Of a stretch of DNA of 64,000 nt, positions 39,001 through 42,000 are shown piece by piece. This DNA is from Escherichia coli (GTDB taxonomy: Bacteria > Pseudomonadota > Gammaproteobacteria > Enterobacterales > Enterobacteriaceae). A program made the position numbers. The stretch lies in assembly GCF_016903815.1 (NCBI RefSeq), contig NZ_CP069974.1; one strand, written 5' to 3'. Each line of letters begins with the position of its first letter. Positions within the stretch are counted from its first letter, which is position 1.

Positions 39001-42000
39001 GACTATCTGACTGAGATACTCGACGGGGTAAGGCGGATCGACGATCAGCTGCTGCACATCTTTCTGACGCTCAACGAGGACCTATTGCGTCACCGGATCG
39101 CGAACCAGACCATGCATCCTGACCCGAATCGAAATGCGGAGATTCGAGAGTGGCGATTAGCGAATGTCGCCCGATGCTTGGCCGCAAGGGAACGGCTTCC
39201 ATGCACAACCCGTGTTCTCGATAGTGGTGCACACACCAGCGATGAACTCGCAGCGATGGTGCTCGACGGAATCGATGGGCGCACCTGATCGCCTTCGACG
39301 CCTGCGCAAAGCGTAGCGCGAGGGTGGCGGGCTCACGACCAAACGCCCAGAGGTCGATCATCGCAGGGATGTTTGGCTTTGTGGTGCGGACGACGGGACT
39401 CGAACCCGTACTCTCACAGAGAAGCAGATTTTCGTACCACCTCGACTTTCGCCGCCGTCTGATGACGTTCGTGGTCTGGACTGTCCCTTCGCCATTGCCC
39501 GAAGGCTTTAGGCGCCGCCCGTCCAGTCTCTACACCTTCCCCCGAAGGGGCTTGGCTCGGGATTGGCTTAGGGTATTGCCCGTTAGCGTTCCCCGACTTT
39601 GAGCGGTTCTACTCCGCGGATTTCCCCGCGGGCACTCCAATTTTAAAGTCTGCTGCGTCTACCGATTTCGCCACGTCCGCCTTTTTTCGCCGTTCCTAGC
39701 GCTCGTGCGATGCACCTATGTTGCACCTAGCGCCGAATCGTTCTTCGTCATCCTGAAAAACCACGTCTCCTAAAGCCTTGCATAGCTTATCTTTTCTCCA
39801 CCACGAACTTTTTTGTGGGATGGTAGAAAAAAAGACTTTTTAAGTCCGCTGGCTTGCCAGGCCTTGTTAGCTTGTACGGTCATGGTTATCGGGTAAAGAA
39901 TATTGACGGCATCGCTGGTGTCGGTGGCTGAAAAGCCGGCTCCCATCAGGGCAATAGCCATTTCAGATGCAGGCGTACAGGGCAATGGTCAACAGCTACA
40001 GCCTGTCTGACGATTCCGGCGTCATGGCTGCGGCGGCTATCACGCATTTTTTGTTCGGTCAGGCGGTGTTTTCGTACCTCAATGGTTGGAGCGTGTTGAT
40101 CGGACCTGGTACAGGTTTGGACAGCACGGGCTGCAAATACGCAAGGGATTTAATGGGCCTGGTGGCGTTCACGGCTTTTATCGTGACGTTTCTGTTCAGG
40201 GGCTACTCATAATCTCGTGGCTCGGCGGTTCCCGGCACACCATGACAGTAAGGAAGGACCCTGTGTCTCAACTCTCCCAGCTTCGAAGCCCCGCCGCCGT
40301 GCAGGCTGCCATCGATGAGTTCGTGCAACTGGGCCGCACGAAATTCCTGGCGCGCCACGGCTACGGCAAGTCCCGCGACTTCCTGGTACGTGATCCGAAG
40401 ACCGGCACCGATTGCGATTCCAAGGCCATCGCCGGTGTGGCCTTCGGCAAGCAATTTCCCGAGCAGGGCCCGCTCACTGCTGACAGCTTCTCCGGTGGCG
40501 AGGCGACCGTCGTTCCGGCGCTGACGCGGCTCGGGTTTCGCATCATTCGCATCGGCGAAGACTGGTCCGAAGAAGAGGTCCTGGCCACGGTCGAAGACTA
40601 TTTCGACATGCTGCGTGCCGAGGCGGCTGGGGAGCCGTACAACAAGTCCGAGCACAACCAGGCACTGCGCCAACTGCTGAACGGTCGCAGCAAGTCTTCA
40701 GTCGAGCTCAAGCACCAGAACATTAGCGCCGTACTCGATGCCCTGGGCCTGCCCTATATCAACGGCTACAAGCCACGCGGCAACAGCCAACTGCTGCTGC
40801 GTAAATCCGTACACGCCTACGTTCTGGAACATCAGCAGACGGTCGGCGCTCTTGTCGATGCCCTGGAGGAGGTAAAACTTCCGGGTGACAAAACCTACCG
40901 AGCGGCTTTGGTAGAACCACCCGCCCGTGAAGTGCTTGTGCGTACCCCGGCATCTCTACGGCAACGCCTACCGCGAAAGTTCGATTATGCCGCTCGCGAT
41001 GAAGCCAACCGCAAGCTGGGCCGGGCAGGGGAGCAGTGGGTGATTGGCTACGAACAGCAACGCCTGACCGAGCTCGGCCACCCAGAGCTTTTTCAGCGGC
41101 TGGATTGGGTGTCCGACACCCAGGGAGACGGTGCGGGGTTCGACATCCTGTCGTTCGAAGAGGACGCCCATGAGCGCTTCATCGAGGTGAAAACCACCAA
41201 TGGCGGGGTAGGCTCGTCTTTCTTGGTCAGCCACAACGAACTCGAATTCTCCAAGGAGGCGGGCGATCAATTCCATCTGTATCGCGTGTTCCAGTTTCGG
41301 GACGGTCCGCGCCTGTTCACGCTACCCGGCGACCTCAGCCAACATGTGCATCTCAAGCCGACGGGCACTGTTGCAAATAGTCGGTGGTGATAAACTTATC
41401 ATCCCCTTTTGCTGATGGAGCTGCACATGAACCCATTCAAAGGCCGGCATTTTCAGCGTGACATCATTCTGTGGGCCGTACGCTGGTACTGCAAATACGG
41501 CATCAGTTACCGTGAGCTGCAGGAGATGCTGGCTGAACGCGGAGTGAATGTCGATCACTCCACGATTTACCGCTGGGTTCAGCGTTATGCGCCTGAAATG
41601 GAAAAACGGCTGCGCTGGTACTGGCGTAACCCTTCCGATCTTTGCCCGTGGCACATGGATGAAACCTACGTGAAGGTCAATGGCCGCTGGGCGTATCTGT
41701 ACCGGGCCGTCGACAGCCGGGGCCGCACTGTCGATTTTTATCTCTCCTCCCGTCGTAACAGCAAAGCTGCATACCGGTTTCTGGGTAAAATCCTCAACAA
41801 CGTGAAGAAGTGGCAGATCCCACGATTCATCAACACGGATAAAGCGCCCGCCTATGGTCGCGCGCTTGCTCTGCTCAAACGCGAAGGCCGGTGCCCGTCT
41901 GACGTTGAACACCGACAGATTAAGTACCGGAACAACGTGATTGAATGCGATCATGGCAAACTGAAACGGATAATCAACGCCACGCTGGGATTTAAATCCA

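What the first reader, a model, noticed from the sequence alone, without database searches (positions are those of the whole stretch)
39967..41363. Truncated gene for a DUF3883-like domain protein abutting IS26, a possible remnant of a defense-type gene
The ORF (likely start 40263) has an unrecognised N-terminal region and a C-terminal block resembling the restriction-endonuclease-like DUF3883 domain that recurs in anti-phage systems. Its frame runs directly into IS26 copy 5, so the 3' end is missing. It is unrelated to the neighbouring aac(3)-II/tmrB genes.
Basis: inference. Interest (0 to 1): 0.45.

Follow-up and report, generated by a model that had tools for sequence, protein, structure and literature searches.

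The report
Known hitchhiker nuclease gene clipped by IS26
This is an already catalogued, nearly full-length gene for a DNA-cutting enzyme of a suspected (untested) anti-phage family. It rides along with a gentamicin-resistance gene on more than a thousand plasmids, and here an IS26 element has replaced only its last 11 codons.

Summary
A real gene (GTG 40263, stop 41390) carries a complete C-terminal DUF3883/NOV_C nuclease domain (E 1e-21). It runs into the fifth IS26 of the window, which starts at 41364.

"Truncated remnant" overstates the damage. 367 of 378 native codons survive. The last 11 (DYRASFRSLVG) are replaced by 8 IS26-encoded codons (GTVANSRW). The catalytic D294/E308/K310/E326 residues are intact, but a family-conserved C-terminal [Y/F/W]-R-A motif is lost.

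The gene is "orf1182" of the published aacC2(aac(3)-II)-tmrB-orf192-orf228-orf1182-ISCfr1 module (RefSeq WP_014837927.1). The segment is on 1,350 plasmids, and the gene is in 599 of 5,426 complete E. coli genomes. At least 371 plasmids share this exact IS26 junction.

The "unrecognised" N-terminus is a ScoMcrA-type head domain, followed by a helical, homeodomain-like region. The protein matches PADLOC's untested single-gene candidate PDC-S36 (E 6e-104).

The closest relatives (92-93% nucleotide identity) are chromosomal in Stutzerimonas. There the gene follows a roughly 1,700-aa DEAD+UvrD helicase in islands that also hold Gabija or Lamassu systems. The plasmid module captured the nuclease gene but not the helicase.

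The defence-type reading is supported by homology and context only. Verdict: ordinary and already known, of low to moderate interest.

The parts
39985..40212 (+). orf228. This is the 5'-truncated remnant of a small (about 100 aa) predicted membrane-protein gene. In Stutzerimonas it lies between the giant helicase gene and the nuclease gene. The left breakpoint of the Stutzerimonas-like segment is at about 39986.
   Evidence: blastn: the window matches L019/L020 at 92.5-93% identity from 39986 onward only. Alignment A5 shows the homology starting inside the small ORF. RefSeq annotates a hypothetical protein here.
40250..40258 (+). Shine-Dalgarno-like AAGGAAGGA, 4 nt before the GTG start.
   Evidence: Read directly from the sequence. 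Conserved in the Stutzerimonas loci.
40263..41363 (+). Native part of orf1182, codons 1-367 of 378. It encodes a PDC-S36-family PD-(D/E)xK nuclease.
   Evidence: dN/dS against orthologues is 0.06-0.09.
40287..40550 (+). ScoMcrA-type N-terminal 'head' domain (residues 9-96). Its function is unknown even in ScoMcrA.
40554..41012 (+). Conserved helical middle region (residues 98-250). Residues 103-160 form a homeodomain-like three-helix bundle. Family-invariant residues here are W101, Y113, K150, N153 and Q176.
41028..41321 (+). NOV_C / DUF3883 PD-(D/E)xK nuclease domain (residues 256-353). Catalytic codons are D294 (41142-41144), E308 (41184-41186), K310 (41190-41192) and E326 (41238-41240).
41364..41390 (+). 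IS26-encoded tail (GTVANSRW plus TGA). It replaces the native DYRASFRSLVG, so the conserved [Y/F/W]369-R370-A371 motif is lost.
   Evidence: Alignments A1 and A2, BLASTP against the intact pCTX-M3 allele, column counts.
41364..42183 (+). IS26, fifth copy in the window. There is no 8-bp target duplication (left flank AGCCGACG, right flank CTTTTTTC), so the junction reflects an IS26-mediated rearrangement or deletion.
   Evidence: IR search and flanks read.

Best explanation
The ORF is orf1182 of the well-known aacC2(aac(3)-II)-tmrB-orf192-orf228-orf1182-ISCfr1 resistance module. It is a passenger gene picked up from a Stutzerimonas-like chromosome.

It encodes a three-part protein:
- a ScoMcrA-type head domain;
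- a helical, homeodomain-like putative DNA-binding region;
- a C-terminal NOV_C/DUF3883 PD-(D/E)xK nuclease with an intact D-E-K-E active site.

It belongs to PADLOC's untested single-gene phage-defence candidate family PDC-S36.

Most likely mechanism of the native protein (inferred): the N-terminal and middle domains bind DNA, and the NOV_C domain nicks or cuts invading DNA with a divalent metal. In the source lineage it probably acts together with the giant DEAD+UvrD helicase encoded just upstream.

The plasmid module captured the nuclease gene without that helicase. In this window an IS26-mediated event then replaced the last 11 codons with 8 IS26 codons. The copy is therefore nearly complete, but it is an orphaned and probably unselected hitchhiker, and its activity is uncertain.
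For: Shown:
- Identity and junction.
- The module is named in PMC7096625, and the same gene order is annotated in pCTX-M3.
- Prevalence: 1,350 plasmids carry the segment, about 730 have the intact 3' end plus ISCfr1, at least 371 have this exact IS26 junction, and 599 of 5,426 complete E. coli genomes carry the gene.
- Domains: NOV_C E=1e-21, PDC-S36 E=6e-104 over profile positions 4-274 of 280, ScoMcrA head E=3.5e-15.
- AF2 model with pLDDT 88 has homeodomain-like and Hjc-like parts.
- Source: S. stutzeri and S. nitrititolerans loci are 92-93% identical from window 39986 to the junction, with a 1,705-aa helicase upstream.
- Homologues lie next to Gabija (GajA 2.5e-267, GajB 1e-239) and Lamassu systems.
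- Purifying selection: dN/dS 0.06-0.09.

From the literature:
- The NOV_C domain of HmaA is a DNA nickase, and its D/E/K/E residues are required for defence (PMC11232893).

Inferred:
- DNA binding by the middle domain.
- Cooperation with the helicase.
- Lack of selection on plasmids. This rests on other plasmids truncating the gene at aa 356, 312, 257, 216 and 41.
Against: - No member of PDC-S36 has been tested. PDC systems are explicitly untested candidates.
- The helicase is directly upstream on the same strand in only 6-7 of 79 non-redundant loci (present near 10 in all), and many homologues stand alone. A helicase partner may therefore not be needed.
- The lost tail holds a conserved aromatic-R-A motif (58 of 58 aromatic). 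This allele may be inactive, or the tail may be dispensable. Neither could be shown.
- No sigma-70-like promoter was found between tmrB and the gene, so expression is unknown.
Confidence: 0.6

Rival explanations
1. The plasmid-borne gene, including this IS26-fused allele, is an active stand-alone defence or anti-plasmid nuclease. Its benefit helps to explain why the aac(3)-II module is so widespread.
For: - The catalytic residues and 97% of the protein are intact.
- PADLOC files the family as a single-gene candidate, and many homologues have no recurrent partner.
- About 90% of plasmid copies cover at least 80% of the gene.
- This exact fusion persists on at least 371 plasmids.
Against: - All copies are at least 99% identical, so persistence may only reflect recent clonal spread with aac(3)-II.
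- Several plasmids carry deeper truncations.
- The conserved C-terminal motif is lost here.
- No promoter-like site was found.
- There are no experimental data.
Confidence: 0.2
2. The protein is a Type IV-like, modification-dependent restriction endonuclease. The head and middle domains read a DNA modification and the NOV_C domain cuts, as in the DUF3427-DUF3883 enzymes.
For: - The head domain is otherwise known from the Type IV enzyme ScoMcrA and matches the N-terminus of PADLOC's mREase_IV model.
- One family member carries an EVE (PUA-like) domain N-terminal to the same core, although its score is just under the Pfam cut-off (E=1.2e-4).
- DUF3883 is the catalytic domain of the modified-cytosine-dependent enzyme YenY4I, and McaZI-type fusions occur in defence islands (PMC6765204).
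Against: - The known reader domains of ScoMcrA (SBD, SRA) are absent. The match is confined to residues 9-96.
- The head domain has no known function.
- No PUA, SRA or DUF3427 domain is present in this protein.
Confidence: 0.13
3. The gene has a non-defence role, such as a DNA repair or recombination nuclease or an HTH-type regulator, and its presence in islands is incidental.
For: - DUF3883 occurs in many architectures, including eukaryotic NO VEIN.
Against: - There was no NCBIfam or housekeeping family hit.
- Distribution is patchy, inside integrase-bearing islands beside Gabija, Lamassu and Mrr-like genes.
- N-terminal domains vary on a constant core.
- PADLOC derived the family from genes embedded in BREX, DISARM or Type I RM loci.
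Confidence: 0.07

Closest known systems
PADLOC PDC-S36 (single-gene phage-defence candidate; Payne et al., bioRxiv 10.1101/2024.01.29.577857)
   Same: The roughly 280-aa core (middle helical region plus NOV_C) matches the profile at E=6e-104. Other family members match it to the end of the profile.
   Different: The profile lacks the ScoMcrA head domain found here. This copy stops at profile position 274 of 280 because of IS26. The family itself is untested. This copy lies in a resistance module, not embedded in BREX, DISARM or RM.
HmaA (Snf2 helicase-NOV_C fusion of the Hma system; PMC11232893)
   Same: It has a NOV_C PD-(D/E)xK domain with the same D...ExK...E residue pattern. In HmaA this domain is a DNA nickase needed for defence against T4.
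   Different: HmaA fuses the nuclease to a Snf2 helicase. Here the nuclease is a separate protein, and in Stutzerimonas the helicase (DEAD+UvrD) is a separate upstream gene. The N-terminal domains are unrelated.
PD-T4-1 (E. coli anti-T4 system, Vassallo et al. 2022) and Tiamat TmtA
   Same: The C-terminal NOV_C-type domain is shared (PD-T4-1 E=1.8e-17, TmtA E=3e-14).
   Different: Only the last 110-120 residues or so match. The rest of those much larger or NTPase-containing proteins is absent.
ScoMcrA (Type IV phosphorothioate-dependent restriction enzyme, PDB 5ZMM)
   Different: There is no SBD, no SRA and no HNH domain here. The nuclease is PD-(D/E)xK instead.
YenY4I / McaZI DUF3427-DUF3883 modification-dependent endonucleases (PMC6765204)
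   Same: Both use a DUF3883 catalytic domain behind a variable N-terminal sensor, occur in defence islands, and are often near DUF2075/SLFN-type helicases. That neighbour was also seen here in 9 of 79 loci.
   Different: This protein has no PUA or DUF3427 reader domain.
orf1182 of the aacC2-tmrB-orf192-orf228-orf1182-ISCfr1 module (pEl1573 JX101693; pCTX-M3 WP_000080861.1)
   Same: It is the same gene. It is identical over residues 1-367 except for A81T and N127H in the pCTX-M3 allele.
   Different: Here the last 11 codons and ISCfr1 are replaced by IS26.

Membership tests
Pfam NOV_C / DUF3883 (PF13020) | Score above the gathering threshold over the whole domain model | tested here: met
   77 bits against a cut-off of 22.1, profile positions 1-90 of 91, E=1.2e-21.
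PD-(D/E)xK nuclease superfamily | Catalytic D...(D/E)xK residues on an alpha/beta core | tested here: met
PADLOC PDC-S36 | Full-length match to profile PDLC05008 | tested here: met
   E=6.3e-104, profile positions 4-274 of 280. The last 6 or so positions are missing because of IS26.
PADLOC PDC-S36 | Located in or embedded within defence loci (the basis on which the candidate was defined) | tested here: not met
   In the window the neighbours are aac(3)-II, tmrB and IS26. The feature is met for chromosomal homologues, which lie beside Gabija, Lamassu and Mrr-like genes.
PADLOC PDC-S36 | Demonstrated anti-phage activity | not testable with these tools
   The PDC systems are described as untested candidates. 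A literature search for 'PDC-S36' found nothing.
ScoMcrA-type Type IV restriction enzymes | Modification-reader domain (SBD and/or SRA) plus HNH nuclease | tested here: not met
   The profile match to 5ZMM is limited to head-domain residues 9-96. There is no SRA or HNH hit in Pfam.
DUF3427-DUF3883 / PUA-DUF3883 modification-dependent endonucleases | PUA-superfamily or DUF3427 reader domain N-terminal to DUF3883 | tested here: not met
   No such domain is present in this protein. One distant family member has a borderline EVE hit.
PD-T4-1 / Tiamat (TmtA) / HmaA | NTPase or helicase domain in the same polypeptide as the NOV_C-type nuclease | tested here: not met
   Matches cover only the C-terminal 110-120 residues or so. 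No NTPase domain is present.
aacC2-tmrB-orf192-orf228-orf1182-ISCfr1 module | Gene order and at least 99% nucleotide identity to the published module | tested here: met
   100% identity over 39300-41364 to hundreds of plasmids. The same gene order is annotated in NZ_CP020338 and pCTX-M3. ISCfr1 is absent here and IS26 takes its place.

The most novel reading that the evidence does not exclude
The PDC-S36 nuclease may be the effector of real but uncharacterised defence cassettes. Three recurrent forms were seen: one with a giant DEAD+UvrD dual helicase, one with a tightly linked HIT-HNH pair, and one with a MazG-like plus SLFN/DUF2075 helicase pair. The orphan copy carried with aac(3)-II in about 11% of complete E. 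coli genomes may still restrict phages or competing plasmids. That would link the spread of an aminoglycoside-resistance module to a portable immune gene.
Probability: 0.15. Interest if true: 0.6.

Novelty: already known. Interest (0 to 1): 0.25.

Why it matters
As it stands, this is a tidy annotation result. A "hypothetical" ORF that accompanies aac(3)-II on over a thousand plasmids can now be described as a near-complete ScoMcrA-head / HTH-like / NOV_C nuclease. It belongs to an untested phage-defence candidate family, has a Stutzerimonas-like origin, and lost its native helicase neighbour on capture.

It would matter more if the intact or IS26-fused allele proved active. A very common resistance module would then also carry an immunity function, which could affect phage therapy and plasmid competition in Enterobacteriaceae. 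The recurrent helicase and HIT-HNH neighbourhoods also give concrete constructs for testing PDC-S36.

Tried and rejected
- NCBIfam gave no hit at E<=1.
- Foldseek against the PDB gave nothing below E=1e-3 for the whole model. No solved structure has this architecture.
- phmmer of a single sequence against the PDB was only marginal (E=0.14).
- Pfam on ten family members with long N-termini recognised only one borderline EVE domain.
- Context look-ups for three distant members returned contigs of about 2 kb or less with no useful neighbours.
- The search for related loci with the diverse alignment A3 failed for lack of a conserved stretch. It was repeated with A1.
- I tested whether window 39289-40262 derives from the 3' end of the helicase gene, and rejected it. 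There is no nucleotide or translated similarity. Only 39986 onward is Stutzerimonas-like, and it corresponds to a small membrane-protein ORF.
- The promoter scan found no sigma-70-like site in 39200-41500.
- The phage collection has only weak partial hits (at most 36% identity over the nuclease domain), so the gene is not phage-borne.
- Literature searches for 'PDC-S36' and 'orf1182' turned up no functional study.

Full report
**1. What is in the sequence**

Listing the ORFs of 37500-44000 shows a + strand ORF open from 40086 to a TGA at 41388-41390. The conserved start is GTG 40263, four bases after AAGGAAGGA (40250-40258). This codon aligns with the ATG of the 378-aa homologues and is the RefSeq start (WP_014837927.1, 375 aa, "DUF3883 domain-containing protein").

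The IS26 terminal repeat GGCACTGTTGCAAA occurs ten times in the window, as five elements. The fifth spans 41364-42183. The gene's frame runs 8 codons into it (GTVANSRW, then stop).

The 8 bp flanking this IS26 differ (AGCCGACG on the left, CTTTTTTC on the right). The other side abuts a conjugative-relaxase-like ORF fragment. The junction therefore reflects an IS26-mediated rearrangement rather than a simple insertion.

**2. How much is missing**

I aligned the protein with full-length relatives (A1), compared the DNA with an untruncated copy (L002), and ran BLASTP against the intact pCTX-M3 allele. All three agree. Residues 1-367 are native, and the last 11 (DYRASFRSLVG) are replaced.

The Pfam NOV_C domain is complete (profile positions 1-90 of 91, E=1.2e-21). 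The invariant D294, E308, K310 and E326 are all present. The lost tail is not featureless, however. In 58 family members down to 34% identity, position 369 is always aromatic, position 370 is R in 35, and position 371 is A in 51. The PADLOC profile match accordingly stops at 274 of 280 here, whereas it reaches 278-279 in intact relatives. "Truncated" is correct. "Remnant" is not.

**3. It is a known module component**

The 2,065 bp from 39300 to the IS26 junction are at least 99% identical on 1,350 PLSDB plasmids of Escherichia, Klebsiella, Salmonella, Acinetobacter and others. The literature describes the unit as aacC2-tmrB-orf192-orf228-orf1182-ISCfr1 (PMC7096625, citing pEl1573 JX101693). 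pCTX-M3 shows exactly that order, with an intact 378-aa gene followed by ISCfr1.

- About 730 plasmids keep the intact 3' end with ISCfr1.
- At least 371 carry the identical gene::IS26 junction seen here.
- Other plasmids are cut at about aa 356, 312, 257, 216 or 41. This pattern is what one expects of an unselected passenger next to IS26.
- 599 of 5,426 complete E. coli genomes carry the gene, mostly on plasmids.

The window allele keeps the ancestral A81 and N127, whereas the pCTX-M3 allele has T81 and H127.

**4. Origin**

A scan of one genome per species found the closest relatives in Stutzerimonas stutzeri V81 and S. nitrititolerans GL14. They are 92-93% identical in nucleotides to window 39986-41362. 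dN/dS against these and more distant orthologues is 0.06-0.09, so the gene evolved under strong purifying selection.

In those genomes the gene is preceded by a small ORF for a hydrophobic protein of about 100 aa. Before that lies a 1,705-aa protein with DEAD/Helicase_C and UvrD domains. This helicase matches PADLOC's DpdF/PsyrT-type and GajB-type helicase models. The plasmid homology begins inside the small ORF. Plasmid "orf228" (39985-40212) is therefore its 5'-truncated remnant, and the helicase gene was left behind.

Sequence further upstream (39289-39985) has no similarity to any fetched locus. On the right, ISCfr1 in the intact module sits directly after CGGCC, in a hairpin-like sequence about 45 nt past the stop. 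A related IS occupies the same site in S. kunmingensis but is absent from a sister contig.

**5. What the protein is**

- **Residues 98-372.** These form the family core. An exhaustive phmmer search found 7,982 cluster representatives (759 at E<1e-30). Many are stand-alone proteins of about 280 aa, and others carry different N-terminal extensions.
- **Defence-library matches.** The protein matches PADLOC's PDC-S36 at E=6e-104. Through the nuclease domain only, it also matches PD-T4-1 and Tiamat TmtA.
- **Negative results.** NCBIfam has no model for it, and no solved structure shares the architecture.

**6. Does it belong to defence?**

PDC systems are 145 untested candidates found as genes embedded in BREX, DISARM or Type I RM loci. 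No paper mentions PDC-S36.

Context supports the label for the chromosomal relatives:
- The closest metagenomic homologue lies in an integrase-bounded island beside a complete Gabija system (GajA 2.5e-267, GajB 1e-239).
- The P. aeruginosa homologue lies beside Lamassu (LmuA/LmuB) and an Mrr-like gene.
- The P. nitroreducens homologue lies beside a Mokosh-like helicase.

Clustering the neighbours of 79 non-redundant loci gave three recurrent sets:
- a HIT-family gene in 17 loci, often 0-12 nt away, with an HNH protein in 11;
- the giant helicase in 10 loci (6-7 directly upstream on the same strand);
- an SLFN-g3/DUF2075 helicase in 9 loci, with a MazG-like gene clustered in 5 (tblastn found it in more).

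The remaining loci, at least about half, show no recurrent partner. Experimentally, the NOV_C domain of HmaA is a DNA nickase, and its D/E/K/E residues are needed for defence against T4 (PMC11232893). DUF3883 is also the catalytic domain of the modification-dependent enzyme YenY4I (PMC6765204).

**7. Mechanism and its limits**

The best-supported reading is as follows. The native protein is a DNA-binding PD-(D/E)xK nickase or endonuclease used in conflict with foreign DNA. In the source lineage it is probably a split version of the helicase-NOV_C fusions, with the helicase encoded upstream.

Shown here:
- domain identity;
- active-site conservation;
- purifying selection;
- island context;
- loss of the helicase neighbour on capture;
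- the 11-codon replacement.

Inferred:
- DNA binding;
- nicking activity;
- helicase dependence;
- the status of this allele.

A Type IV-like, modification-dependent mode is possible (head domain, and an EVE-bearing relative). But the defining reader domains are absent, so membership fails. I could not determine whether the IS26-fused protein is active or even expressed. No sigma-70-like promoter was found.

**8. Verdict**

The gene is an already annotated, literature-named passenger of a common resistance module. It is only lightly clipped by IS26, and it belongs to an untested defence-candidate family. This is ordinary for a specialist in resistance plasmids and modestly interesting for defence-system biology.

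Noticed in passing
L011 11150-12606 (also L031, L034, L036/L042, L037, L040, L043, L048, L051; upstream in L038, L059, L068, L077, L083, L084, L094): A HIT-family gene lies immediately next to the PDC-S36 gene in 17 of 79 non-redundant loci, often only 0-12 nt away. It is usually followed by an HNH protein of about 350 aa (11 loci). The arrangement spans Beta- and Gammaproteobacteria and both full-length and core-only family members. PADLOC has only weak hits for these two proteins (ThsC-like HIT, PtuB-like HNH). The trio looks like an undescribed cassette.
   Followed up: partly
L003 4810-9999; L020 4497-9614; L015 4763-9907; L089 4738-9813: A protein of about 1,700 aa combines DEAD/Helicase_C (DpdF/PsyrT-like) and UvrD (GajB-like) helicase modules. 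It sits directly upstream of the nuclease gene on the same strand in Stutzerimonas/Pseudomonas and, at 44% identity, in Cupriavidus. A remnant of its 3' end remains upstream of the gene in Pseudomonas sp. gcc21 (L007 9707-9865).
   Followed up: partly
L008 7430-9699; L018/L025, L028, L052, L055: A divergently oriented MazG-like plus SLFN-g3/DUF2075 helicase pair recurs just upstream of the nuclease gene in several Pseudomonas, Stutzerimonas and Delftia genomes. This echoes the DUF2075 association reported for DUF3427-DUF3883 enzymes.
   Followed up: partly
L002 about 1305; L003 about 11170 (compare L004, L019, L020 without the IS): ISCfr1 (IS1182 family) in the plasmid module and a related IS in S. 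kunmingensis are inserted at the same point. Both sit right after CGGCC in a hairpin-like sequence downstream of the gene. This suggests site-specific targeting, and that ISCfr1 was acquired together with the gene.
   Followed up: partly
window 39985-40212 (orf228) and 39770-39961 (orf192, - strand): orf228 is the 5'-truncated remnant of a small hydrophobic-protein gene found between helicase and nuclease in S. stutzeri and S. nitrititolerans. The origin of 39289-39985, which includes orf192, remains unknown, and G+C dips to about 51% there.
   Followed up: partly
window 40503-40505 and 40641-40643 (codons 81 and 127): Two alleles of the gene circulate. The window allele has A81/N127, the ancestral state shared with the Stutzerimonas homologues. 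The intact pCTX-M3 allele has T81/H127. Intact copies of both kinds appear to exist on plasmids (88.1% and 87.6% identity classes).
   Followed up: partly
window 42165-44918 (- strand): A 917-aa ORF abuts the other end of this IS26 and overlaps its last bases, so its own 3' end is also cut by the element. From the translation it looks like a conjugative relaxase/helicase (TraI-like). It was not checked with any tool.
   Followed up: no
window 36762-37730 (- strand): A 322-aa ORF upstream of aac(3)-II looks from memory like an IS10/IS4-family transposase fragment. It was not tested.
   Followed up: no
P0235 (L014 144-1934): A 596-aa family member carries a borderline EVE (PUA-like modified-base reader) domain N-terminal to the PDC-S36 core. 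Others (P0139, P0141) have an extra 100-130 residues before the ScoMcrA-type head. N-terminal modules are evidently swapped on a constant nuclease core.
   Followed up: partly
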